From NCBI GenBank assembly GCA_964387425.1, contig CAYLXP010000005.1, positions 3,209 to 67,208 of the forward strand: a stretch of 64,000 nt of DNA, read 5' to 3'. The notes under the pieces are model-generated. The model searched no databases and had not been told where the DNA came from. It worked only from the letters and a program-made list of their open reading frames with translations. Within the stretch, counting starts at the first letter, position 1, and every line of letters starts with the position of its first letter. Positions 2-15,512 of the stretch are shown one piece after another. The position numbers and the translations under genes were made by a program. This stretch comes from an uncultured Victivallales bacterium (lineage in GTDB: Bacteria; Verrucomicrobiota; Kiritimatiellia; UBA8416).

Positions 2-2728
<2,727 letters not shown>

Positions 2729-2739
2729 GGAGTTTAACA

Positions 2740-4188
2740 ATGCGGCACAGAGAACGCGGCTTTATTGAAGTTTCCCGGCAAGATCCCGGGTATCGCCCGA
2801 AGGACGAACGCGTCAAGGATTACCGGGCTGTTGAGTTGCGGCTTTCCGACGCGGACCTGCATGAGCAGGCAGCCCGGTGTATGGATTGCGGCATACCGTT
2901 TTGCCAGAGTGCCCACTCCTCGGTGGGATGCCCGGTGGTGAACATCATTCCCGAGTTCAACGACCAGGTCTATCACGGTAAGTGGCGCGAGGCGCTTGAG
3001 TTGCTGTTGGAGGGAAGCTGCTTCCCCGAGTTCACGGGGCGGATCTGTCCGGCTCCATGCGAGGCTTCGTGCGTATGCGGGATCAACACCGATCCGGTGG
3101 CCATCCGGCAGATCGAGCTTACGATCATCGAGCATGGCTTCTCGCGCGGTTTCGTTGAACCGCAGATCCCGGAAACACGCCGGGCTGAGCGCGTCGCCAT
3201 CGTCGGTTCCGGACCGGCAGGACTGGCTGCTGCGCACAAGCTGAACCAGGCGGGATTCAACGTCGTTGTGTACGAGGCGGACCAGTATCCCGGCGGGATG
3301 CTGCGTTACGGGATTCCCGACTTCAAACTCGAGAAGTGGGTCGTCGAGCGACGGGTCGATCTGCTGGAGAAGGAGGGCGTCGTTTTCGAGACGGGCGTTG
3401 AGGTCGGCGTTGACGTTTCCGCCCACTACCTCAACAAACGTTTCGATGCCATCCTGTTGGCCGGTGGTGCGCGCGGGCCGCGTGATCTTGACGTCGAGGG
3501 ACGGGAACTGTCCGGCATCGAGTTCGCGATGGATTTTCTGACACAGCAGAACATGCGGATCGGTGGCGAGGATGTCTCGCACCTGCCGGAGATCTCTGCC
3601 GAGGGCAAGCGGGTGATCGTGATCGGTGGTGGCGATACGGGATCTGACTGTGTCGGCACGTCGATCCGCCAGGGCGCGGCCAGTGTTCAGCAGTTCGAGA
3701 TTCTGCCGAAGCCGCCGATGGAACGCCCGGAGGAGACGCCATGGCCGCTGTGGCCGAACAAGATGCGCACCTCCAGTAGCCACCTTGAAGGTTGCGAACG
3801 ACGGTGGTCGGTAACGACTAACATCTTTGTTGGCAAGGATGGTGCGGTGACCGGGTTGGAATGTGCCGAAGTGAAGTGGGTCTTTCCTGAAGGCGGCTGG
3901 CGTCCCGTGCCCGAGGCTGTCGAGGGCTCCGAGTTCACGGTGGAAGCCGATCTCGTCCTGCTGGCCATGGGCTTCGTCAGTCCCGGCCACATGCAGATCC
4001 TTGACGACTTGGGCGTCGAGCTCAATGACCGCGGTTTCGTGAGCCGGCATCCGGAGAATGCGACCAGCGTTCCCGGCGTCTTTGTCGCCGGCGACATCAC
4101 CGATGGCCCGTCACTGGTTGTCCGCGCGATGCAAGACGGCAAGCAGGCCGCCAAGGGAATTGCGGCGTTCCTTGATGGGGGTGTTTAG
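2740..4188 (+). CDS. gltD: Glutamate synthase small subunit
   Basis: RCMDCGIPFC...CP, GRICPAPCEASC, GSGPAGLAAA, IGGGDTGSDC; directly follows gltB. Confidence 0.97.
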   Translation: MRHRERGFIEVSRQDPGYRPKDERVKDYRAVELRLSDADLHEQAARCMDCGIPFCQSAHSSVGCPVVNIIPEFNDQVYHGKWREALELLLEGSCFPEFTGRICPAPCEASCVCGINTDPVAIRQIELTIIEHGFSRGFVEPQIPETRRAERVAIVGSGPAGLAAAHKLNQAGFNVVVYEADQYPGGMLRYGIPDFKLEKWVVERRVDLLEKEGVVFETGVEVGVDVSAHYLNKRFDAILLAGGARGPRDLDVEGRELSGIEFAMDFLTQQNMRIGGEDVSHLPEISAEGKRVIVIGGGDTGSDCVGTSIRQGAASVQQFEILPKPPMERPEETPWPLWPNKMRTSSSHLEGCERRWSVTTNIFVGKDGAVTGLECAEVKWVFPEGGWRPVPEAVEGSEFTVEADLVLLAMGFVSPGHMQILDDLGVELNDRGFVSRHPENATSVPGVFVAGDITDGPSLVVRAMQDGKQAAKGIAAFLDGGV

Positions 4189-4348: not shown

Positions 4349-4472
4349 TAAGAGCGCCCACATGCTGTTTGTCCGAGTTGTCTGGCAGGTTGGTTCTGGA
4401 AGTGATATGACTTCGATGACCCCGATGGGATGAGAAGCGTTTACGTAGGCGTTGCTACTTGAGGAGACGACG

Positions 4473-6569
4473 ATGACGAGTGAAACCCGGGAAAGTCAGA
4501 TCACGGATTTGTACGGTGAGAATGCGTTTAGTCTGCGCGTCATGCGAAACTACCTTTCGGACGGCGCATTTGCCTCTTTGAGCAAGACGATCCGCACGGG
4601 CAGCGCCCTGGACGCCGGCATTGCGGACGAAGTCGCCGACGCCATGAAGACATGGGCGCTGGAGAAAGGTGCTACGCACTTCACGCACTGGTTCCAGCCG
4701 CTGACAGGCGCCACGGCCGAAAAGCACGACTCTTTCGTGGTGCCGGATGGCGAAGGCGGCGCGCTGCTGAAGTTCTCCGGAAAAGAGCTAATCCAGGGCG
4801 AACCGGACGCGTCGAGTTTTCCATCGGGCGGCCTGCGCGCCACGTTTGAAGCGCGGGGCTACACGGCGTGGGATCCCACCAGCCCGGCCTTTATCAAGGA
4901 GGGCACCAACGGTGCGACCCTCTGCATTCCGACCGTCTTCTGCGGTTACCATGGCGAAGCGCTGGACAAGAAGGCACCCCTGCTGCGTTCCATGGATGCG
5001 CTGGATGTTCAGATATGCCGGTTGGGCGAGTTCTTTGGGGTGGAGCCCAATGGCATGCGAGCCATCGCCACGCAGGGCATCGAACAGGAGTACTTCCTGA
5101 TCGATCGTAGCCTGTATGAAGAACGCCTGGATCTGATCCAGACCGGTCGCACGCTTTTCGGACGTGCGCCGGCAAAGCACCAGCAGCTTGATGACCACTA
5201 CTTCGGCGCCATCAAGAAGCGCGTGATCACGTTCATGACGGACCTGGATCGTGAGCTGTGGCGCTACGGCATTCCGGCACGCACGCGCCACAACGAGGTC
5301 TGCCCGGCGCAGTTCGAGGTCGCCCCGATGTTCGAGACCCTCAATCTTGCTGTCGACCACAATATGCTGATGATGGAGACCCTGCGCAACGTGGCCGAGG
5401 ACCATGACTTCATCTGCCTGCTGCACGAGAAACCCTATGCCCGCGTGAATGGCTCCGGCAAACACAACAACTGGTCGGTGGATGGACCCGACGGGAAGAA
5501 CTGGTTGAAGCCCGGTGACAACCCGCACGAGAACGCGAAGTTCCTGACGATTATCGTGGCGCTGATGAAGGCGGTCGATACCCATGCCGATCTGCTGCGG
5601 GCATCGGTTGCGACCGCAGGTAACGATCATCGCCTGGGGGCCAATGAAGCACCGCCGGCGATCATCTCGATCTTCCTCGGAGAACAGTTGTATGATGTCA
5701 TCGAGCAGCTCGAAAAGGGGCCGGCCACGAGCACGAAATCGGTCGATGCGTTGAAGCTCGGCGTGACGTCGCTGCCAACGCTGCCGCGTGACGCCACGGA
5801 CCGCAACCGTACCTCGCCCTTTGCCTATACCGGCAACAAGTTCGAGTTCCGTGCCGTGGGATCCGAGCAGAATTGCGCGGGTCCGAACGTGATCTTGAAC
5901 ACGATCGTGGCCGAGGCCCTGGACGAGATCTGCACGCAGCTGGATGCCGACTTGGCGGACGGCAAGGAATTCAATGAGGCCTTGCAGGCGATTCTCTCCG
6001 CGATGGTGAAGCAGCACAAGCGTATCCTGTTCAATGGAGACAACTACACGGATGAGTGGGTTGCCGAAGCTGAGCGGCGCGGTCTGCCGAATCTCAAGAA
6101 GACGCCCGAAGCGCTGAAGACGATGCTGTCCGACAGGGCCATCGCCCTGTTCGGAAAGTACAATGTTCTGTCTGAGGCCGAACTGAAATCCCGTTACGAG
6201 GTGTACAGCGAGAACTACGAGGAACAGGTGGCGATCGAGGCCCGTTGCGCCATCACGATGGCCAAGACCCTGATTGCGCCTGCTGCGTTGGAATACCAAG
6301 CAGAGCTGTCGGAGACCATTCGATCCGTTGAAGCCACCGGCATTGGCGAAGCTGAAGAACCCCGCGCCCTCCTGAAAGACATCTTCACGGAGACCAACAA
6401 ACTGCTGGCCGGCGTAAGGGCGTTGGAGGCCTGCGAGCAAGCGGGAGAACCACTCGAGACGCTTGCCGCCATGGAGTCGCTGCGCGAGGCTGCCGATGCG
6501 CTGGAAGGACTCGTGCCCGACAGCGTCTGGCCGCTACCCACCTATACCGAGATGATGTTTACGCTCTAG
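4473..6569 (+). CDS. glnA: Glutamine synthetase type III (GlnN-type)
   Basis: [73 protein letters not shown]; RBS GAGGAG at 4461-4466 before ATG 4473. Confidence 0.96.
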
Positions 6570-7034: not shown

Positions 7035-8453
7035 TCACTTCTTGGAGCCGCAGCCTTCACACCCGTCCCAGCAGTAGGTGCAGAGTTTCTCCTTGGGGAG
7101 ACCGATGGCGTCCACGAGGTCGGGGAGCTTCTGGAATTTCAGCGTTGTCAGATGCAGCCGTTTGCGGATGCTCTCAACCATCGCGGCGTACTCCGGTGAG
7201 TTGGGGTCGGCATAGGCTTCCAGGTTGGCGTTCTCATCGCCCTCGAGTTCCTTGATCGCTGTGCGGGTGGCCAGGTCGAGCTCAGACCGGGAGCGGGAGA
7301 AGTTGAGGTACTTGCAGCCGTAGACCAATGGGGGGCAGGCGGGGCGCATATGTACCTCTTCGGCACCGTATTCGAACACACGTTGCACGATGTCCTGGAG
7401 CTGCGTGCCACGCACAATGGAGTCCTCGCAGAAAAGGAGTTTCTTCCCCTTGATCAGCTCGCGGATTGGGATCAGTTTCATGCGGGCGACGAGGTTGCGA
7501 ATGCTCTGATCCTGGGGCATGAAGCTGCGCGGCCATGTCGGGGTGTACTTCACGAAAGGACGACGGTAAGGAACCTTGGCTTCGACGGCGTAGCCGATGG
7601 CATGCGCAGTGCCGGAATCCGGGATTCCGGCGGCGAGATCGATTTCGTCGTCATCATTACGGGCCAGGGCGGCTCCACAGCGGTTGCGTGCGTCTTCGCT
7701 GTTGATCCCCTCATAGCTTGAGGCGGGATAGCCGTAGTAGACCCAAAGGAATGAGCAGATCTGCATCTTGTCGCCAGGCAAGGCTTTCTGTTCGATGCCG
7801 TCGGGGGTCAGTAGAACGATTTCGGCCGGGCCGAGATCGCGTACGTATTCGTAATCCAGGTTTGGCAGGGCGCAGGTTTCAAGAGTAGCGGCAAAGGCGC
7901 CGTCCTTTTTCCCTAGAATGATGGGCGTGCGACCAAGGCGGTCGCGTGCCGCGTAGATGCCCTCGTCGGACAGGATCATGATGGAGCAGGATCCTTCGAT
8001 CTGTTCCTGGGCGTAACGCAGACCTTCGTCAAAGGTGTCGCCCTTGTTGACGAGCATTGCCACAAGTTCGGTGGGGTTGACGTCGCCATCGCTCATCTCT
8101 GCGAAGTGCACGCGGCGATGTTGGCACGCATCCGCGGCGAGCTCTTTGAGATTCTGAATCACGCCAACGGTTACGATGGCGTAGGTGCCGAGATGCGATG
8201 AGATGATCAGGGGCTGGTCATCCGTGTCGCTGATAACGCCGATGCCCATGTTGCCACTCATCTGGCTGATGTCGTCTTCGAACTTGGAGCGGAACTGGGT
8301 GTTGGTGATGTCATGAATGTAGCGGCAGAATCCGTTGCCGTTCTTGCTGGCGAGTCCCCCACGAACCGTGCCCAGGTGGGAGTGATAGTCGGTGCCGAAG
8401 AAGAGATCCGTGACACAATCCGTTTTCGATACGACTCCAAAGAAACCACCCAT
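7035..8453 (-). CDS. PurF (amidophosphoribosyltransferase) paralogue lacking the glutaminase catalytic residues
   Basis: PRPP loop FCEDSIVRGTQ, GIPDSG, and Fe-S cysteines (ICSF, YGCKY, LCTYCW) retained; N-terminus is MGGFFG instead of CG(I/V)FG. Confidence 0.9.
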   Translation of the reverse strand: MGGFFGVVSKTDCVTDLFFGTDYHSHLGTVRGGLASKNGNGFCRYIHDITNTQFRSKFEDDISQMSGNMGIGVISDTDDQPLIISSHLGTYAIVTVGVIQNLKELAADACQHRRVHFAEMSDGDVNPTELVAMLVNKGDTFDEGLRYAQEQIEGSCSIMILSDEGIYAARDRLGRTPIILGKKDGAFAATLETCALPNLDYEYVRDLGPAEIVLLTPDGIEQKALPGDKMQICSFLWVYYGYPASSYEGINSEDARNRCGAALARNDDDEIDLAAGIPDSGTAHAIGYAVEAKVPYRRPFVKYTPTWPRSFMPQDQSIRNLVARMKLIPIRELIKGKKLLFCEDSIVRGTQLQDIVQRVFEYGAEEVHMRPACPPLVYGCKYLNFSRSRSELDLATRTAIKELEGDENANLEAYADPNSPEYAAMVESIRKRLHLTTLKFQKLPDLVDAIGLPKEKLCTYCWDGCEGCGSKK

Positions 8454-8509
8454 GACGACCTCCTGTTGTGGGCTACACTGCCCGTCTATACGGTTATTTG
8501 GTTATGTTG

Positions 8510-11137
8510 TTAATCCACCTTTGCAACGAAACACTTCACTTCCTGTTCCAGTGCGTCAGCGGTTAGTAGAATCTGTTTGCCTTCGGATACGAGACTGTGG
8601 CTCGGGATGACCTTAATGGCGTCCTGCCATTTCTCTGCAGAGGGAACGAGGTCCAAGAGCGTTGAAGGCGTATTGAGAAAAAGGTCACCGTTGAGATAGC
8701 TTCCCGGTCGAGAGGGAAACAGCGCCAGGTAGAGCATGTCGACCTCAACGAGTTCATTCAGGAAATGCGTTCCGAGGGATACATCGGGAATCAGGTTCTC
8801 GTGCATAGTGACGATTTCACAGAGAATCGAGACGCCGTTGATGTCCGAGAAGTTGACGGGAATGCCCAGTGAAGGACTGCTGGTGCCCCAGCGACCCGGC
8901 CCCAGTAGTACCGTCACCCCTTCTTCGTTCTGTTCCCGAACGGCCCGGTTGACCTGGCCCAGCATGCGTGCAACCTCGTAGCGCTCGGAAACGGGAAGTG
9001 CCCCGTATACCTCGGGAACCACGTAGATGAAGGTGTCAATGGCTGTGATGCGACTCTGTCCCACGACGGCGCTATGCGCGGCAATGATCCGGTCTTCATC
9101 CTTGATCTCGACATCGGGTAGCTCAATCTCGGTCGTTCCCTGGACTTGGAGTGGTCGACATTGAACGAGGTTAATCTTGTACTCCCCCTCATCGTCGAAG
9201 TTCACCGTGAATTCGATGTCCACCGGGTAGTCATACGCTTCATGCAGGATATGCAGCATCTTCTTCATCGTTTCGATGAAACGGGTCTGCTTCAGCAGGT
9301 TGTCGAATGTCAGGAAACGTGGTGCCGCCACGGCGGGAACTCCGGGACGCCGCCGCTCGCGCAGTTGGCGCGCGACCTCGTGATCAATAGACGTCGCCAG
9401 GTCCAGCGGGAGTTTATCGCAGGTGTCGATCAGATCCTGGAAGTGCCCCGAGCTCAGGTGATTGGCTTCCAGATCGATGAAGTCAACGCGTCGTTGGGCA
9501 TACTGTTTCACTTCGTCAAAGCTGTGTTCGGGACGCCGGTCAGGGGCATTAAGGGCAATGACGCGCGTGTAGTCGTCATCGGAGCGGTCGACGGCCCGTG
9601 TGCCGAGCCCGAAGACGAGCCGGATAACGCCCGCTGCGGGATCGATGTCTTTGCTCCAGACGTACGGGTTGAATGAGAAGCCCACCCCGGCGACTGGCGG
9701 GTAGAAGTTCTTCCCGTAGGCTTTACCGGAGACGCGCATGACCAGCAGCCCCATTTGCTCATCTTTGTCGAGCATGCCGCGCCGGTCGCGATAGCGCAGC
9801 GCGCGTTCGCTCATGGAGCTGGCGTAGATGGTGCGCACGGCGGCCAGGAAGTCCTCGAGGCGCTGGTTGCGCGGTCCCTGGTTGGCGCAAAAGACGCTCT
9901 CGTACTTGCCGGCGAAGGCGTTGCCGAAGTTGTCCTCGAGCAGCGAGCTGGAACGCACGATGAACGGGGACTGGCCGAAGTAGTCGATCATCTCCTGGAA
10001 TTGACGGATCGTGCGGTCGGGGAAGGTCCCCGTGATGATCAGGCGCCGGGCCCGGGTGGCGCTTTCGTAGAAATCCTGACCGTCACGCTGCTGGCGCCGG
10101 GTCCACCAGATGCCGTTGCGCACGAGATAGGTGTAGAAAACGTCGGAGCCAATGAAGAACGAGTCGTGTTCTTCGAGCGCCTCGGCGAGGGTGTCGGATG
10201 AGCGCTTCACGATGGCCCGCGCGAGCAGCATGCCGACGGCCTTGCCTCCGATGAGTCCGGTGCCGATCATGCGGCGACGCACATCGAGGATGTCCTCGAG
10301 TGTGAGATAGCGGCGCGTGAGCCCCTGCATGGTTTCATCCCGGGTGATTACCATGGGGACGAGTCGCTCAAAGGGTTCCTGTTCGTCGGATTCCGTGCGC
10401 AGGCCGGATTGCACCTCGTCCTTGACTTCCTGGGCCTCGATGAAAGCACGTTCCCAGAAGCCGGGGCGGCGGTCGGAGTAGAGCCCGGACCATTTCGCTG
10501 ACGTCAGGATTTCGGCGATGATGACACTGTCGCTGACGGGGGCAACGTCGTCGTCCTTCCAGCGGTGCAGCATATTCATGGTGGTGGAGTAGCGGTGCTG
10601 GACCTTAAGCGGACGAACATAGAGGTCCTTGTGGTGGTAGACCTCGAGAAACAGTTGGGTGGTCTCGCTGATGGGGTCGATTGCCCGTGGCGAGTGGTGG
10701 TTTCGGTAGAGACCGAAATAGGCCAGCGTTTCGAGATCGAAGAGATAGGGGCAGGTCAGCTTGAAAAAGTTGCCGAGCATCTCGTCCGAGTACCAGCAGT
10801 CGGCCAGCTCAGAGATGCAGTCGAAGACGTAGTAAGCGCCGCGTCCGGCTTCGCCGATGGCCCGGTGTACATTGCCGATGAAGGTCTCGAATCCGTCGTC
10901 GGGGCGGAACGTGTAGGTTTGGACGTTGGCGTCTTCGGGGACGAGGGCCTGGTGATCCGCAAAGTGAAAGTAGACGACCGGTTGTGAGGTCTTCCGGGCC
11001 GCTTCAATGTAGGGGCGGACCAGTGCCTGGTAGTCCTCGATCTTGTCAATTTGCCAGACAACATTATCGCCGGGGAGAATGCCGCGCAGGATCTTGTCGA
11101 GTCCCGGTATTCCCGTCGAGAATTGATAGGCATCCAT
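8510..11137 (-). CDS. PPDK_N (ATP-grasp, PEP/pyruvate-binding family) protein with a degenerate KaiC/RecA-like N-terminal domain
   Basis: N-terminal FSTGIPGLDKILRG; PPDK_N motifs IGGKA, VRSSSLLED..FAGKYES, DIEF, LVQCRP; ATG 11137 chosen because the longer ORF start runs through the upstream terminator. Confidence 0.85.
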   Translation of the reverse strand: MDAYQFSTGIPGLDKILRGILPGDNVVWQIDKIEDYQALVRPYIEAARKTSQPVVYFHFADHQALVPEDANVQTYTFRPDDGFETFIGNVHRAIGEAGRGAYYVFDCISELADCWYSDEMLGNFFKLTCPYLFDLETLAYFGLYRNHHSPRAIDPISETTQLFLEVYHHKDLYVRPLKVQHRYSTTMNMLHRWKDDDVAPVSDSVIIAEILTSAKWSGLYSDRRPGFWERAFIEAQEVKDEVQSGLRTESDEQEPFERLVPMVITRDETMQGLTRRYLTLEDILDVRRRMIGTGLIGGKAVGMLLARAIVKRSSDTLAEALEEHDSFFIGSDVFYTYLVRNGIWWTRRQQRDGQDFYESATRARRLIITGTFPDRTIRQFQEMIDYFGQSPFIVRSSSLLEDNFGNAFAGKYESVFCANQGPRNQRLEDFLAAVRTIYASSMSERALRYRDRRGMLDKDEQMGLLVMRVSGKAYGKNFYPPVAGVGFSFNPYVWSKDIDPAAGVIRLVFGLGTRAVDRSDDDYTRVIALNAPDRRPEHSFDEVKQYAQRRVDFIDLEANHLSSGHFQDLIDTCDKLPLDLATSIDHEVARQLRERRRPGVPAVAAPRFLTFDNLLKQTRFIETMKKMLHILHEAYDYPVDIEFTVNFDDEGEYKINLVQCRPLQVQGTTEIELPDVEIKDEDRIIAAHSAVVGQSRITAIDTFIYVVPEVYGALPVSERYEVARMLGQVNRAVREQNEEGVTVLLGPGRWGTSSPSLGIPVNFSDINGVSILCEIVTMHENLIPDVSLGTHFLNELVEVDMLYLALFPSRPGSYLNGDLFLNTPSTLLDLVPSAEKWQDAIKVIPSHSLVSEGKQILLTADALEQEVKCFVAKVD

Positions 11138-11170
11138 CGGGTTAGTCTTGATGCTTGTGAGTTCGGTGAC

Positions 11171-11208
11171 AAGAAAAAAGGCGGCCCTGCCGAGTGACAG
11201 GGCCGCCT
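11171..11208 (-). terminator. Rho-independent terminator after gdhA
   Basis: On the - strand: AGGCGGCCCTG-loop-CAGGGCCGCCT followed by TTTTTCTT. Confidence 0.85.
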
Positions 11209-11246
11209 GAGTGGTCATTCATCCGCCGAGGCGGATGATTTGGCAC

Positions 11247-12733
<1,487 letters not shown>

Positions 12734-12853
12734 ATACACGGATAATGATGTTGCAGTCATGCGGGGAAGCTACTAGAATTTCCGTGATTTGTGCTGCCAA
12801 AGCAGCGGCAATCCAAAACGGCAAGCAGCCCGAACTTTTTTGGGAGAAACCCC

Positions 12854-13876
12854 ATGGCTACAAAGGTTGACCGTGTACGAAATGCCATCCTTAAGGCATT
12901 GAGCGAAGACGACGCTCCTGCCGGAGCGGCGAAACTGGCGGTGCGGCTGCGGGCGATGGGGTTGGACCCCCGTCCGCGAACGGTGCGGGCGCATCTGCTG
13001 GAGCTGGACCGCGAGGGTCTAACGGTCATGGTAAGCCGACGGCAGGGGCGACGGTTGACGGATCGGGGGCGGCGCGAGCTGACCAATGCCGATGCATTCT
13101 CGAAGCTGGGTTTCGTGGCCGCCAAGGTGGATGACCTCGGGTACCGCATGTCCTACAGCACGCGTTCGGGGCGGGGGACGGTCGTCGCCAACATGGCATT
13201 GATTCGTGACCGGGACCTTTCCCGCGCGCTTCTGAACGTGGTTCCCGCCTTCCGGGCCGGATTGTCGGTGAGTGATCAGATGGCCGTGGTGCGGGCAGGA
13301 GAGCAGATCGGGGGATTCACGGTGCCGCTGGGGTCGGTTGTCCTGGCAACGATCTGTAGTGTCACGGTCAACGGGGTGCTGTTGTCGAGTGGAATCCCGG
13401 TGACATCCCGTTTTGGCGGCCTGCTCGAAATGCGCGATGGTGCTCCGATGCGCTTCGTGGACGTCATCGAGTACCGGGGCACCACGGTGGATCCGCTGGA
13501 AGTGTTCATCGGGGCCGGCATGACGGAGGTCTCGCAGTGCGCGAAGACAGGCAGCGGGATTATCGGTGCGAGTTTTCGGGAGATTCCGGCCGGCGCAGCG
13601 GGATTGGCGCGGCGGGTACTGGCCCGCCTGCGGGAACGCGGCCTGGGCGGCGACCTGGCCTTCGGGGAGGGGAGTCTCCCACTGTTTGACATCCCGGTCA
13701 CCGAAGGCCGGACCGGGCTGATCGTCATAGGTGGTCTCAACCCGCTGGCGGTGCTGCGGGAGGCGGGCATTCCGTCCACGACGCGTTCACTCTCAGGACT
13801 GGCCGACATCTCGGCCTTCATGCCCTTTGAGGATGCCGCCATGCTCGGCAAACGCAGCTATCCGTACGTGGACTAG
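12854..13876 (+). CDS. nrpR: NrpR-family nitrogen repressor (winged HTH plus NRD/DUF128 domain)
   Basis: N-terminal wHTH (ILKAL...RTVRAHLLELDREGLT..GRRLTDRGRREL); NRD motifs GTVVAN, ATICSVTVNGVLL, SRFGGLL, YRGTTVDPLEVFI, ASFREIP, GGLNP; nitrogen-gene context. Confidence 0.88.
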   Translation: MATKVDRVRNAILKALSEDDAPAGAAKLAVRLRAMGLDPRPRTVRAHLLELDREGLTVMVSRRQGRRLTDRGRRELTNADAFSKLGFVAAKVDDLGYRMSYSTRSGRGTVVANMALIRDRDLSRALLNVVPAFRAGLSVSDQMAVVRAGEQIGGFTVPLGSVVLATICSVTVNGVLLSSGIPVTSRFGGLLEMRDGAPMRFVDVIEYRGTTVDPLEVFIGAGMTEVSQCAKTGSGIIGASFREIPAGAAGLARRVLARLRERGLGGDLAFGEGSLPLFDIPVTEGRTGLIVIGGLNPLAVLREAGIPSTTRSLSGLADISAFMPFEDAAMLGKRSYPYVD

Positions 13877-14060: not shown

Positions 14061-15512
14061 ATGAGCGTCTGTGAGTTCCCCGAATCGGTCGTTGACGACC
14101 GCCCACACGAGTATTGCGGCGTCTTTGGTGTGTATGGTCTGCCGGAGGCGGCAGCTGCCATCTACAAGGGATTATTCAGTCTGCAGCACCGGGGCCAGGA
14201 GGGGGCCGGGATCGTCGTTGCCGACGGTCAGAAGGTCCGCTCGACCAAGGGGCAGGGGCTGGTCAGCGAGGTGTTCTCGGACCAGGACTGGTCCGGCCTT
14301 GCGGGCCACCTTGGCATTGGCCACGTACGCTATTCGACGACGGGGTCAACCCGCATCCAGAACGTGCAGCCGCTCGTGGCGGAGTGCGTTGATGGGATCT
14401 GGTCGGTTGCCCACAATGGAAACCTGGTGAACGCGGAGCGTCTCCGCCAGATGTACCAGGAGGCCGGCGCCATTTTCCAGACCAGCACGGACAGCGAGGT
14501 GCTTGTCCACCTGCTGGCGGATCCGATGTACCGGTCCCGTCCCCGCCGCGTGGCGCGGGCGTTGGCCGAGCTGCAGGGGTCGTTCTGTTTTCTGCTTATG
14601 ACTCGCAACTGCATGATGGCGGCCCGCGACCCACATGGCTTCCGTCCACTGTCGATCGGCAAGCTGGGCGATGCCTATGTCGTGGCCAGCGAAACCTGTG
14701 CACTGGACCAGGTCGGCGCCACGTTCTTGCGCGATGTGGAGCCGGGCGAGTTGCTGATCTTCGATGAAACCGGCATGCACAGCTCGATCTTCAACGAGGT
14801 GGCGGATTCCTCCGAACAGGCCCGCTGCATTTTCGAGATGGTCTACTTTGCCCGACCGGACAGCCGGGTGTTTGGTAAGAACGTGCATTCGGTTCGCGAG
14901 GCCTACGGCAAACGGTTGGCCGAAGAGCATCCGGTGGATGCCGACATCGTCATTGCGATCCCGGATAGCGGCAATTCAGCTGCGCTGGGGTACTCCGTGG
15001 GTAGCGGCCTTCCGCTTGAGCACGGCTTCATTCGTAACCACTATGTTGGGCGGACCTTCATTATGCCGGAGCAGGATGAGCGGGCAAAAGGGGTCGATAT
15101 GAAGCTGGCCGTCCTGCCGGAGGTGGTCAGGGGCAAGCGGGTTGTGGTTGTGGACGACTCAATCGTGCGCGGGACGACTGCCCGCCGGCGTGTGATTCGC
15201 CTGCGCGAGGCGGGGGCGAAAGAGGTGCATGTGCGGATTTCGTGTCCTCCGATCACAAATCCCTGTTTCTTCGGAATCGATTTTCCTACGAGCGAGGAGC
15301 TGGTAGCCGGTACGATGGATGTCGAGTCGATACGGAAGTTCATTGAGGCAGACACACTTGGGTATCTTAGCCTGGAAGGCCTCTTCTCCCCGTTTGAGAA
15401 GGCAAAAGGCTTCTGCGCGGCCTGCTTTGACGGGAAATACCCGACCGACGTCAGCGGTATTCGCGGCAAACACGCGTTGGAGCGGAGTTCAGAGCTCGAA
15501 CTGAATCTCTGA
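14061..15512 (+). CDS. purF: Amidophosphoribosyltransferase, canonical glutamine-dependent form with propeptide
   Basis: HEYCGVFG (Cys1), LQHRGQE, GHVRYST, AHNGNL, VDDSIVRGTT, Fe-S cysteines; RBS AGGAGG before ATG 14061. Confidence 0.96.
   Translation: MSVCEFPESVVDDRPHEYCGVFGVYGLPEAAAAIYKGLFSLQHRGQEGAGIVVADGQKVRSTKGQGLVSEVFSDQDWSGLAGHLGIGHVRYSTTGSTRIQNVQPLVAECVDGIWSVAHNGNLVNAERLRQMYQEAGAIFQTSTDSEVLVHLLADPMYRSRPRRVARALAELQGSFCFLLMTRNCMMAARDPHGFRPLSIGKLGDAYVVASETCALDQVGATFLRDVEPGELLIFDETGMHSSIFNEVADSSEQARCIFEMVYFARPDSRVFGKNVHSVREAYGKRLAEEHPVDADIVIAIPDSGNSAALGYSVGSGLPLEHGFIRNHYVGRTFIMPEQDERAKGVDMKLAVLPEVVRGKRVVVVDDSIVRGTTARRRVIRLREAGAKEVHVRISCPPITNPCFFGIDFPTSEELVAGTMDVESIRKFIEADTLGYLSLEGLFSPFEKAKGFCAACFDGKYPTDVSGIRGKHALERSSELELNL

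What the first reader, a model, noticed from the sequence alone, without database searches (positions are those of the whole stretch)
7035..8453. Glutaminase-dead PurF paralogue: candidate ammonia-only PRPP aminotransferase
Seen, by comparison with the canonical PurF at 14061: Cys1 becomes Gly (MGGFFG vs YCGVFG), QHRG becomes SHLG, GHVRYS becomes GVISDT, HNG becomes TVG and TDSE becomes NPTE. The PRPP loop (EDSIVRGTQ) and four Fe-S cysteines are kept. Known: Cys1, Arg26, Arg73, Tyr74, Asn101 and Asp127 (E. coli numbering) form the glutamine site, and PurF can use free NH3 when Cys1 is inactivated. Inference: a dedicated NH3-dependent purine entry enzyme in the gdhA arm, or a PRPP/nucleotide sensor. 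Such proteins would ordinarily be annotated simply as purF.
Basis: partly seen in the sequence, partly recalled or inferred. Interest (0 to 1): 0.78.

Follow-up and report, generated by a model that had tools for sequence, protein, structure and literature searches.

The report
Glutaminase-dead PurF, probably ammonia-dependent
This gene encodes a strongly conserved variant of the first enzyme of purine synthesis that has lost everything needed to take nitrogen from glutamine and most likely uses free ammonia instead, apparently as one member of a wider set of ammonia-using nucleotide-synthesis enzymes in anaerobic bacteria.

Summary
ORF 7035-8453(-) encodes a 472-aa PurF paralogue, 27% identical to the canonical purF at 14061. 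Gly replaces Cys1, the glutamine-site residues are replaced, and the glutamine loop is 8 residues shorter. The PRPP site and four Fe-S cysteines are kept.

It belongs to a large, untested family. At least 600 genome stretches were found, 57-85% identical across many phyla, all named simply amidophosphoribosyltransferase.

New evidence:
- In 15 of 16 near-complete genomes examined it is the only PurF-family gene found, although PurD is present (16/16), as are PurM and PurH (5/5).
- The same genomes mostly lack CarA (14/16) and keep a single orphan-type CarB (15/16).
- They lack PyrG (0/5) and have GuaA without an intact glutaminase domain (5/5).
- All carry DUF1846/PyrJ (16/16), which a 2024 preprint showed to be an ammonia-only CTP synthase.
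- This genome has both the glutamine set and the ammonia set, with pyrJ next to an orphan carB.

Best reading (about 0.7): an ammonia-dependent PRPP aminotransferase. The sensor reading is not supported. No enzyme assay exists. This scan has flagged the same family on other DNA before. Novelty: a new variant of a known kind.

The parts
7035..8453 (-). Cysteine-less PurF-like gene (472 aa plus stop), the finding itself
   Evidence: ORF and translation. 27% identical to the canonical PurF. TIGR01134 score 181 bits, below the 350 cut-off. AlphaFold2 model pLDDT 91.6. Foldseek best hits are B. subtilis PurF 1ao0 and Arabidopsis 6lbp, TM 0.81-0.84.
8459..8464 (-). Shine-Dalgarno AGGAGG, 5 nt before the ATG at 8453
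   Evidence: Read directly from the sequence. Fixes the start at MGGFFG.
7764..8453 (-). N-terminal Ntn-type (former glutaminase) domain, residues 1-230. Gly replaces Cys1, the pocket is remodelled (GTDYHSHLG, GIGVISD) and the glutamine loop is 8 residues shorter.
   Evidence: Alignments. Pfam GATase_7 match at residues 74-189. Mean pairwise identity 56% in 94 family members.
7254..7763 (-). Phosphoribosyltransferase domain, residues 231-400. Motifs PDSG, RSF, K326, EDSIVRGTQ, and Fe-S cysteines C233 and C380.
   Evidence: Invariant or nearly invariant columns. Alignment to solved PurF chains. Mean pairwise identity 67%.
7035..7253 (-). C-terminal helical part, residues 401-472 plus the stop codon. 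Carries a family-specific insertion of about 31 residues and the CxxC pair C458/C461.
   Evidence: 31-residue gap in the canonical PurF in BLASTP. The insert is present in the 27-row core clade and absent from the basal short forms.
8510..11137 (-). Upstream gene on the same strand, 56 bp away. An 875-aa protein whose only Pfam domain is PPDK_N (ATP-binding). The longest ORF reaches 11218, but that extension covers the terminator hairpin.
   Evidence: Pfam. NCBIfam gives only weak PEP-synthase N-terminal matches. Start site judged.
11170..11208 (-). Terminator-like hairpin (13-bp stem, 10 G-C pairs, then a T run) right after gdhA
   Evidence: Consensus scan and direct reading. Function not shown.
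11247..12584 (-). gdhA, glutamate dehydrogenase
   Evidence: Pfam ELFV_dehydrog, E 1e-92.
12791..13876 (+). NrpR-like regulator gene, divergent from gdhA
   Evidence: Pfam NRD1_2, E 5e-73, plus a winged helix. No NCBIfam match.
14061..15512 (+). Canonical glutamine-dependent purF, with Cys after a propeptide
   Evidence: TIGR01134 score 522 bits, over the cut-off. N-terminus reads ...EYCGVFG.
4452..6569 (+). Type III glutamine synthetase, convergent with the PurF-like gene
   Evidence: Pfam GSIII_N, Gln-synt_C and Gln-synt_C-ter.
2..4188 (+). gltB (3' part, 2-2728) and gltD (2740-4188), glutamate synthase. Together with the genes above they form a nitrogen-assimilation island.
   Evidence: Pfam. 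Own-genome search.

Best explanation
The gene encodes a working PRPP aminotransferase that makes 5-phosphoribosylamine from PRPP and free ammonia, not from glutamine.

Shown:
- The PurF fold, the PRPP-binding and flexible-loop motifs and the four Fe-S cysteines are kept under strong selection.
- The N-terminal nucleophile, the glutamine-binding residues and 8 residues of the glutamine loop are gone.

Inferred:
- Ammonia reaches the PRPP site through or past the remodelled former glutamine pocket and attacks C1 of PRPP, as it does in canonical PurF when Cys1 is inactivated.

In this genome the protein is a second, glutamine-independent entry into purine synthesis beside the canonical purF. It lies in a nitrogen-assimilation island and belongs functionally with an ammonia-only CTP synthase gene (pyrJ) and an orphan carB elsewhere in the genome. 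In some related lineages this ammonia set appears to have replaced the glutamine set altogether.
For: 1. Sole PurF. I chose 16 genomes (93-100% complete, 11 genera) in which this protein was the best TIGR01134 hit.
- All 16 have PurD over its cut-off. PurM and a split PurH were found in 5 of 5.
- No hit reaches the purF cut-off in any of them.
- The weaker secondary hits checked were AsnB in 4 of 5. Only G248 had a long Cys-bearing PurF.
- Using that long type as a query found nothing in the other 15.
- All 20 fetched genes in this score range are MGGF[FC]G family members, 51-63% identical to the window's protein.

2. Active-site conservation. PDSG, R309-S310, K326, D344-S345, V347-R348-G349-T350-Q351, C233, C380, C458 and C461 are invariant or at least 90% conserved in 26 diverse members. 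The model has pLDDT 91.6 and TM 0.81-0.84 to solved PurF structures.

3. The same 16 genomes have lost other glutaminase parts.
- CarA was found in 2 of 16.
- An orphan-type CarB (60-70% identical to this genome's orphan CarB) is present in 15 of 16, and a canonical-type CarB only in the two that have CarA.
- Class-I GATase hits number 0-3, against 4-7 in G000 and five comparison genomes.
- PyrG was found in 0 of 5 even at E <= 1.
- GuaA lacks an intact GATase domain in 5 of 5.
- DUF1846/PyrJ is present in 16 of 16 and in 0 of 12 comparison genomes.
- Purified PyrJ makes CTP with ammonia but not with glutamine (bioRxiv 10.1101/2024.09.24.614635, section 7 read in full).

4. Phyletic profile in 41 relatives. 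PurF-like against PyrJ gives 19 both, 6 and 3 single, 13 neither.

5. Neighbourhood in 97 loci.
- An orphan CarB with no CarA within 5 kb lies nearby in 8 loci.
- Further neighbours: GDH 5, GS 4, GSIII 4, PyrJ 3, GuaA 4 (2 without GATase).
- One Thermoguttaceae locus reads GATase-less GuaA, CarB, PurF-like, AsnA.

6. Precedent. E. coli PurF with Cys1 replaced still uses ammonia, as stated in PMC3261824 (passages read).
Against: - No member of the family has been assayed, and no paper on it was found.
- The N-terminal domain is not decaying. It has 56% mean pairwise identity, and a new conserved set (D22, Y23, S25, R31, H47, R55, F58, S75, D76) sits at or near the old glutamine pocket. That is more conservation than a mere scaffold seems to need and could mean another ligand or chemistry.
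- The glutamine loop and the Tyr74 equivalent help close the canonical active site (recalled knowledge), and both are lost.
- In my loci the gene is never next to PurD or PurM: 0 of 97 and 0 of 14. 71 of 97 loci show none of the nitrogen genes I searched for.
- In G248 the long PurF, CarA, a PyrG-like GATase and the canonical CarB lie on one contig. Their joint absence elsewhere could therefore be one deletion, or one unassembled region, rather than several independent losses.
- Most of the genomes are metagenome bins, and kin are not independent.
- PurF-like against orphan CarB in relatives is only weakly associated (19/6/7/9, p 0.05).
Confidence: 0.7

Rival explanations
1. The remodelled N-terminal domain binds or processes a nitrogen donor or other ligand that is neither glutamine nor free ammonia. 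The enzyme then makes phosphoribosylamine, or another N-ribosyl product, by new chemistry, or the pocket is an allosteric site that reads nitrogen status.
For: The old glutamine pocket is replaced by a new, strongly conserved residue set rather than by drift. Y23, H26, S75, Q80-P81, N101, N126 and E129 are at least 90% conserved in 26 members. In 94 closer members, 102 positions are at least 97% conserved, including D22, R31, H47, R55 and D76. The gene is often adjacent to CarB (8 of 97 loci).
Against: There is no nucleophile at the N-terminus: Gly in 90 of 94 close members and G/S/A/T/D/K across the wider family. No donor-specific partner gene is conserved nearby. The co-occurring enzymes (PyrJ, AsnA, GATase-less GuaA, CarB without CarA) all point to free ammonia. 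The selection of the 94 sequences required part of the motif, which inflates the conservation of D22 and Y23.
Confidence: 0.13
2. It still works as an amidotransferase but receives ammonia from a separate glutaminase subunit encoded elsewhere.
For: Split amidotransferases exist in other pathways (recalled knowledge). The N-domain surface is conserved.
Against: No conserved neighbour of that kind turned up in 80 loci, in 97 loci, or in 14 loci from genomes where it is the only PurF. Those genomes have very few class-I GATase domains, from 0 to 3, and G047 has none at E <= 1e-8.
Confidence: 0.06
3. It is a catalytically idle pseudoenzyme: a PRPP or nucleotide sensor, or a regulatory partner of canonical PurF or of nitrogen-assimilation enzymes.
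For: It coexists with a canonical PurF in this genome and in 4 of 5 named genomes tested. Here it lies among regulatory and nitrogen-assimilation genes: NrpR-like, GS, GDH and GOGAT.
Against: It is the only PurF-family gene found in 15 near-complete genomes that encode PurD. The catalytic PRPP-loop and flexible-loop residues are invariant. Identity of 57-85% across phyla is typical of a housekeeping enzyme.
Confidence: 0.05
4. The apparent 'sole PurF' genomes are an assembly artefact. A single pyrG-carB-carA-purF region is systematically missing from the bins, so the protein's role in purine synthesis is not established by them.
For: In G248 these genes sit on one contig. In this genome pyrG-carB-carA are adjacent. 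Most of the genomes are metagenome bins.
Against: The pattern recurs in 14 of 16 genomes from several families at 93-100% completeness, including a 10-contig assembly. The same genomes carry replacements: PyrJ in 16 of 16, orphan CarB in 15 of 16, and truncated GuaA in 5 of 5. The preprint reports that about 31% of pyrJ genomes lack pyrG, among them cultured species.
Confidence: 0.06

Closest known systems
Bacillus subtilis-type [4Fe-4S] glutamine PRPP amidotransferase, PurF (EC 2.4.2.14; PDB 1ao0, 1gph; Arabidopsis 6lbp; TIGR01134)
   Same: The two-domain fold is the same over the full length (Foldseek TM 0.81-0.84). Sequence match E 1e-42 to 3e-44. PRPP loop, PDSG motif, flexible-loop Arg and Lys, and four cysteines at the cluster positions are kept.
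   Different: No N-terminal Cys, and the glutamine-site residues are replaced. The glutamine loop is 8 residues shorter, GTT becomes GTQ, and about 31 residues are inserted before the CxxC pair. The TIGR01134 score is 181, below the 350 cut-off.
PurF' of Crenarchaeota (Brown et al. 2011, PMC3261824; passages read)
   Same: A second PurF-like protein that lacks the N-terminal cysteine (Ala or Val there). Its authors proposed it as a possible ammonia-dependent PRPP aminotransferase and left it untested.
   Different: Those genes lie beside purF and other purine genes. This one lies in a nitrogen island and was never next to PurD or PurM in my loci. Whether the two groups form one clade was not tested, because no crenarchaeal sequence was in hand and the paper's additional files were not seen.
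PyrJ (DUF1846), ammonia-only CTP synthase of Streptococcus pneumoniae (bioRxiv 10.1101/2024.09.24.614635)
   Same: The same logic: a glutamine-independent enzyme that backs up or replaces a glutamine amidotransferase step of nucleotide synthesis. It co-occurs with the PurF-like gene and is adjacent to it in 3 of 97 loci.
   Different: It is an unrelated fold and reaction. PyrJ is a non-homologous replacement of PyrG, whereas this protein is a PurF homologue with a dead glutaminase half. PyrJ has been assayed and this protein has not.
AsnA versus AsnB, and NH3-dependent versus glutamine-dependent NAD synthetase (textbook pairs, recalled)
   Same: Ammonia-only and glutamine-using enzymes for the same step coexist in bacteria. 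AsnA lies directly after the PurF-like gene in one locus.
   Different: These are different reactions. For the PurF step no natural ammonia-only enzyme has been demonstrated.

Membership tests
Glutamine PRPP amidotransferase PurF (TIGR01134, EC 2.4.2.14) | N-terminal cysteine nucleophile (Cys1 after Met or propeptide removal) | tested here: not met
   The protein starts Met-Gly-Gly. An SD-supported start and upstream stop codons exclude an earlier Cys. The position is G/S/A/T/D/K in the family.
Glutamine PRPP amidotransferase PurF (TIGR01134, EC 2.4.2.14) | Glutamine-binding and oxyanion residues (E. coli Arg26, Arg73, Tyr74, Asn101, Asp127; numbering recalled) and an intact glutamine loop | tested here: not met
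   These positions are Leu, Ser, Asp and Val, with no conserved Asp, and the loop has an 8-residue deletion.
Glutamine PRPP amidotransferase PurF (TIGR01134, EC 2.4.2.14) | Score over the curated equivalog cut-off | tested here: not met
   181.2 bits against a cut-off of 350. The canonical copy in the same window scores 522.5.
Glutamine PRPP amidotransferase PurF (TIGR01134, EC 2.4.2.14) | Ntn-hydrolase domain plus type-I phosphoribosyltransferase domain fold | tested here: met
   Model pLDDT 91.6. Foldseek TM 0.81-0.84 to 1ao0, 6lbp, 1gph and E. coli PurF.
Glutamine PRPP amidotransferase PurF (TIGR01134, EC 2.4.2.14) | PRPP-binding loop and catalytic flexible loop | tested here: met
   EDSIVRGTQ, PDSG, RSF...R...K are aligned and invariant or nearly so.
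Glutamine PRPP amidotransferase PurF (TIGR01134, EC 2.4.2.14) | Four cysteine ligands of the [4Fe-4S] cluster (B. subtilis type) | tested here: met
   C233, C380, C458 and C461 align with the canonical cysteines. Cluster binding itself was not tested.
Glutamine PRPP amidotransferase PurF (TIGR01134, EC 2.4.2.14) | Catalyses phosphoribosylamine formation | not testable with these tools
   Indirect evidence only: it is the sole PurF-family gene in 15 of 16 PurD-encoding genomes.
Cysteine-less PurF-like clade (unnamed, uncharacterised) | M-[small]-G N-terminus, GTDYHSHLG, GIGVISD plus the 8-residue deletion, DSIVRGTQ, and an insertion of about 31 residues before the CxxC pair | tested here: met
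   All are present in the window's protein and conserved in alignments A1 and A2. It sits inside the 27-row core clade (SH-aLRT 99; quick tree only).
Crenarchaeal PurF' (Brown et al. 2011) | Clusters with the crenarchaeal Cys-less PurF paralogues in a tree | not tested
   No crenarchaeal PurF' sequence was fetched. The paper's additional files were not seen.

The most novel reading that the evidence does not exclude
The PurF-like protein is the purine arm of a coherent ammonia-only nucleotide-synthesis regime. Together with PyrJ (CTP), an orphan CarB working without CarA (carbamoyl phosphate) and GATase-less GuaA (GMP), it lets energy-limited anaerobes bypass glutamine as the nitrogen carrier. 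Organisms like this one switch between the glutamine set and the ammonia set according to nitrogen status, and several lineages have discarded the glutamine set entirely. The remodelled, newly conserved acidic and aromatic pocket in the dead glutaminase domain would then be a dedicated ammonium capture site rather than a relic.
Probability: 0.45. Interest if true: 0.85.

Novelty: new variant of a known kind. Interest (0 to 1): 0.7.

Why it matters
Textbooks give glutamine as the nitrogen donor for the committed step of purine synthesis. If this family uses ammonia, that step is glutamine-independent in a very large number of anaerobes. Record titles name Kiritimatiellae, Lentisphaerae, Planctomycetota, Acidobacteriota, Gemmatimonadota, Desulfobacterales, Clostridia including Lachnospiraceae and Ruminococcus, Bacteroidales, Spirochaetes and Asgard archaea.

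- Every such gene is currently annotated as ordinary purF, so metabolic models and nitrogen budgets for these organisms assign the wrong substrate.
- Together with PyrJ, the orphan CarB and the truncated GuaA, the finding points to a whole ammonia-based mode of nucleotide synthesis, which would save the ATP spent on making glutamine.
- The claim can be tested directly with a standard coupled assay and a purF complementation test.

Tried and rejected
- **NrpR operator.** The recalled consensus GGAA-N6-TTCC gives 4 matches in the window against 0.9 expected (2 of 100 shuffles reach 4). The one near gdhA (12521-12534) lies inside the gdhA coding sequence, so I do not take it as an operator.
- **One gdhA operon.** The terminator-like hairpin right after gdhA argues against a single transcript. 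The overall terminator count in the region was not above shuffles (8 against 8.9).
- **Expression.** No RNA holder was listed for 7035-11300, so no reads were laid.
- **Purine-operon context.** This lead came from earlier scan notes. PurD and PurM queries found nothing in the 97 loci or in the 14 loci of sole-PurF-like genomes. Those notes concern other lineages, and my loci were the 80 most similar plus relatives.
- **Conserved partner gene.** Unbiased clustering of all ORFs within 5 kb in 80 loci gave CarB as the commonest real neighbour, in 9 loci, and nothing else in more than 8.
- **PPDK_N protein as partner.** It is adjacent only in this genus and a close relative (2 of 97 loci). In a Desulfobacteraceae locus a receiver-PPDK_N protein lies before GDH, so it looks linked to GDH rather than to the PurF-like gene.
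- **First, naive ORF caller.** It mis-called strands in these G+C-rich loci and was replaced.
- **Cluster names.** Names for distant representatives gave nothing beyond 'amidophosphoribosyltransferase'.
- **Tree.** The careful search did not finish in 288 s, so only the quick tree is reported.
- **Literature.** Searches found no paper on this bacterial family. The library lacks most subscription journals, and supplements were closed.
Full report
**The observation**

ORF 7035-8453 on the minus strand encodes 472 residues beginning MGGFFG. An AGGAGG sits 5 nt before the ATG, and stop codons lie just upstream, so no earlier start could supply a cysteine. The protein is a full-length homologue of the canonical PurF at 14061-15512 (27% identity, E 3e-37). 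It fails the curated purF model with 181 bits against a cut-off of 350, where the canonical copy scores 522. Pfam sees only the class-II amidotransferase domain.

- Gly stands where Cys1 should be.
- SHLG replaces QHRG.
- GIGVISD replaces GIGHVRYS, followed by an 8-residue deletion of the glutamine loop.
- TVG replaces HNG.

TDSE to NPTE depends on the aligner. MAFFT gives it, while BLASTP pairs TDSE with SDGD. No Asp is conserved there in the family in either case. EDSIVRGTQ and four cysteines (C233, C380, C458, C461) align with the canonical PRPP loop and cluster cysteines. An AlphaFold2 model built on 26 sequences has mean pLDDT 91.6. It superposes on B. subtilis, Arabidopsis and E. coli PurF at TM 0.81-0.84 over both domains.

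**The family**

The word-indexed search returned 8000 scored relatives, which is its cap. The best 120 are 72-100% identical and, where named, are called amidophosphoribosyltransferase. The exhaustive search of 50% representatives gave 8430 proteins at E <= 0.001 and 864 at E <= 1e-30. All 600 were confirmed by tblastn. The 80 kept are 57-85% identical and come from many phyla by their record titles.

In 26 diverse full-length members the invariant or at least 90% conserved columns fall into two groups:
- The PRPP-site motifs: P278-D279-S280-G281, R309-S310, R319, K326, D344-S345, V347 to Q351, and the cysteines.
- A new N-domain set: G3, G6, Y23, H26, G33, F54, F58, S75, Q80-P81, N101, N126, E129.

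The residue at the Cys1 position is G, S, A, T, D or K. It is G in 90 and S in 4 of 94 closer members. Those 94, out of 118 loci tried, were picked with a pattern that demands part of the N-terminal motif. In them the N-domain is 56% and the transferase domain 67% identical on average, so the N-domain is constrained and not decaying.

A quick maximum-likelihood tree (the careful search did not finish) puts the family and some shorter relatives in one clade apart from canonical PurFs (SH-aLRT 99, 33 rows). A core clade carrying the insertion of about 31 residues has support 99 (27 rows). Two Cys-bearing sequences fall among the unresolved basal forms.

**Local context**

The window holds a nitrogen-assimilation island:
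- Plus strand: gltB (3' part), gltD and a type III glutamine synthetase.
- Minus strand: the PurF-like gene, a PPDK_N-domain protein and gdhA.
- Then a divergent NrpR-like regulator, followed by the canonical purF.

A 13-bp G+C-rich hairpin with a T run lies directly after the gdhA stop, inside the longest ORF of the PPDK_N gene. That gene therefore probably starts at 11137, and gdhA is probably a separate transcript. The genome has exactly two PurF-family genes.

**Wider context**

I examined 97 loci, 17 from relatives and 80 from the species collection. Within 5 kb I found:

| Neighbour | Loci |
|---|---|
| Orphan-type CarB, no CarA within 5 kb | 8 |
| GDH | 5 |
| GS | 4 |
| GSIII | 4 |
| NrpR-like | 3 |
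| DUF1846 | 3 |
| Canonical PurF | 3 |
| GuaA (2 of them without a GATase domain) | 4 |
| AsnA | 1 |
| None of these | 71 |

Unbiased clustering of all ORFs in the 80 loci also gave CarB as the commonest true neighbour, in 9 loci and mostly 5-60 bp away on the same strand. One Thermoguttaceae locus reads GATase-less GuaA, CarB, PurF-like, AsnA. A Desulfobacteraceae locus reads receiver-PPDK_N, GDH, a small ORF, PurF-like, CarB, GS, and a sigma-54 activator. PurD and PurM were never adjacent.

**The decisive comparison**

In a sample of 301 genomes of the phylum, at least 90% complete, only 71 have a hit over the purF cut-off. Many have a best hit of about 160-210 bits. All 20 such hits that I fetched are family members with the MGGF[FC]G start.

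I then took 16 such genomes, 93-100% complete and from 11 genera:
- PurD is over its cut-off in 16 of 16. PurM and a split PurH are present in 5 of 5.
- No purF-level hit occurs in any.
- Of 5 secondary hits inspected, 4 are AsnB and one (G248) is a 668-aa Cys-bearing long PurF. That long type was not found in the other 15.
- No neighbour is shared across genera in 14 of these loci, so no candidate glutaminase partner emerges.

**The same genomes lack other glutaminase parts**

- CarA was found in 2 of 16, G248 and G090.
- A single orphan-type CarB is present in 15 of 16. A canonical-type CarB occurs only in those two.
- Class-I GATase hits number 0-3, against 4-7 in G000 and five comparison genomes. 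G248 has 6.
- PyrG's synthetase domain was found in 0 of 5, even at E <= 1.
- GuaA is 310-458 aa with no intact GATase domain in 5 of 5. One keeps a sub-threshold relic.
- GS and GDH are present in 5 of 5.
- DUF1846 is present in 16 of 16, in this genome and in G035, and in none of 12 comparison genomes.

I classified 80 same-class genomes by hand from the best E-values and then counted those without CarA:

| Class | Genomes | CarA not found |
|---|---|---|
| PurF-like is the best hit | 31 | 10 |
| Canonical PurF present | 33 | 2 |
| Other | 16 | 1 |

Within the 31, CarA is missing in 9 of the 11 genomes that have a single PurF-family hit, and in 1 of the 20 that have two or more.

**The anchor from the literature**

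DUF1846 is PyrJ. In Streptococcus pneumoniae it is synthetically lethal with pyrG. The purified protein converts UTP to CTP with ammonia but not with glutamine. About 31% of pyrJ genomes lack pyrG (bioRxiv 10.1101/2024.09.24.614635; section 7 read in full and a discussion passage). That paper does not mention purF.

This explains the missing PyrG biologically. It also makes the parallel loss of CarA, canonical CarB, GuaA's GATase domain and Cys-PurF read as one strategy.

In this genome the canonical pyrG-carB-carA cluster lies on contig C7. A DUF1846 gene followed 19 bp later by an orphan CarB lies on C59 (1334 bits on the carB model; 52% identical to the canonical copy). Only one CarA exists. 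By coordinates, pyrJ and the orphan carB are neighbours in at least 12 of the 41 relatives.

Phyletic tallies in those 41 relatives, which are my own, with Fisher tests:

| Pair | Both | First only | Second only | Neither | p |
|---|---|---|---|---|---|
| PurF-like and PyrJ | 19 | 6 | 3 | 13 | 5e-4 |
| PyrJ and orphan CarB | 20 | 2 | 6 | 13 | 2e-4 |
| PurF-like and orphan CarB | 19 | 6 | 7 | 9 | 0.05 |

Kin are not independent, so these p-values overstate the association.

**Reading**

The best explanation is an ammonia-dependent PRPP aminotransferase. Three things are shown: the fold, the loss of all glutaminase determinants, and the conservation of the transferase site. The distribution as sole PurF, and the company of ammonia-using or glutaminase-less enzymes, are also shown. 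The reaction itself and the path of ammonia are inferred.

The main reservation is the newly conserved pocket in the dead domain, which may have a function of its own, such as ammonium capture, another donor, or regulation. A second reservation is that the glutamine-type genes lie together on one contig in G248. Their joint absence elsewhere may therefore be a single event, or in bins a single unassembled region. The replacements present in the same genomes argue for real loss.

**Known relatives and novelty**

The concept has precedents:
- Cys1 mutants of E. coli PurF still use ammonia.
- Crenarchaeal PurF' was proposed, untested, as ammonia-dependent (PMC3261824, passages read).

Six searches of the paper library found nothing on this bacterial family. 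The library lacks most subscription journals, and supplements were closed.

Earlier reports of this scan reached the same reading for the same family on other DNA. They are not independent evidence. Their lead that the gene occupies the purF slot of purine operons was not seen in my loci.

I rate it a new variant of a known kind, with interest 0.7.

Noticed in passing
G000 contig C59:1-4285 (locus L111), outside the window: A DUF1846/PyrJ gene, cut by the contig end, is followed 19 bp later by a second CarB of 1066 aa with no CarA beside it. The genome has only one CarA, next to pyrG-carB on contig C7. By coordinates, pyrJ and this orphan-type carB are neighbours in at least 12 of 41 related genomes. 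This suggests an ammonia-dependent carbamoyl-phosphate synthetase that works without a small subunit.
   Followed up: partly
window 8510-11218 (-): A gene of 875-902 aa whose only Pfam domain is PPDK_N (ATP-binding part of PEP-utilising enzymes), with about 290 unassigned N-terminal residues and no swivel or PEP-binding domain. A relative with a receiver domain lies directly before GDH in a Desulfobacteraceae locus (L053:3517-6486). It may be a regulator linked to GDH. Function unknown.
   Followed up: partly
L152-L156 (GuaA genes of G059, G056, G054, G047, G043): GMP synthase genes of 310-458 aa lack an intact glutaminase domain. In G054 a sub-threshold remnant of the first 74 GATase positions remains, which looks like domain decay caught in progress.
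   Followed up: partly
L135:576-2420 (G056) and L136:167-1774 (G043): AsnB-type asparagine synthase homologues in two of the genomes with only the PurF-like gene begin MSGIAG / MSGIAV, that is, with Ser where the class-II amidotransferase Cys1 should be. The two from G059 and G047 begin MCAI / MCGI.
   Followed up: no
G248 contig C171:1672-10151: The canonical-type carB (with one in-frame TAG), a PyrG-like GATase frame, carA and a 668-aa long-type Cys-bearing purF lie together on one contig. The glutamine-dependent set can therefore be lost or gained as a block.
   Followed up: partly
G000 contig C5:3-1139, upstream of the window: A second type III glutamine synthetase copy, 82% identical over residues 325-703 to the one at window 4452-6569, lies at the contig start before gltB.
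   Followed up: no
window 11170-11232 (-): Two consecutive hairpins follow the gdhA stop. The second has a 13-bp stem and a T run, and the longest ORF call of the next gene runs through it. This is an example of an over-extended start.
   Followed up: yes
table (phylum sample): 16 genomes of one genus-level group (g86, 98-100% complete), apart from one from another group (G179), show no TIGR01134 hit at E <= 1e-20. Many others have best hits of only about 1e-28 to 1e-34. What serves as PurF in those lineages was not examined.
   Followed up: no
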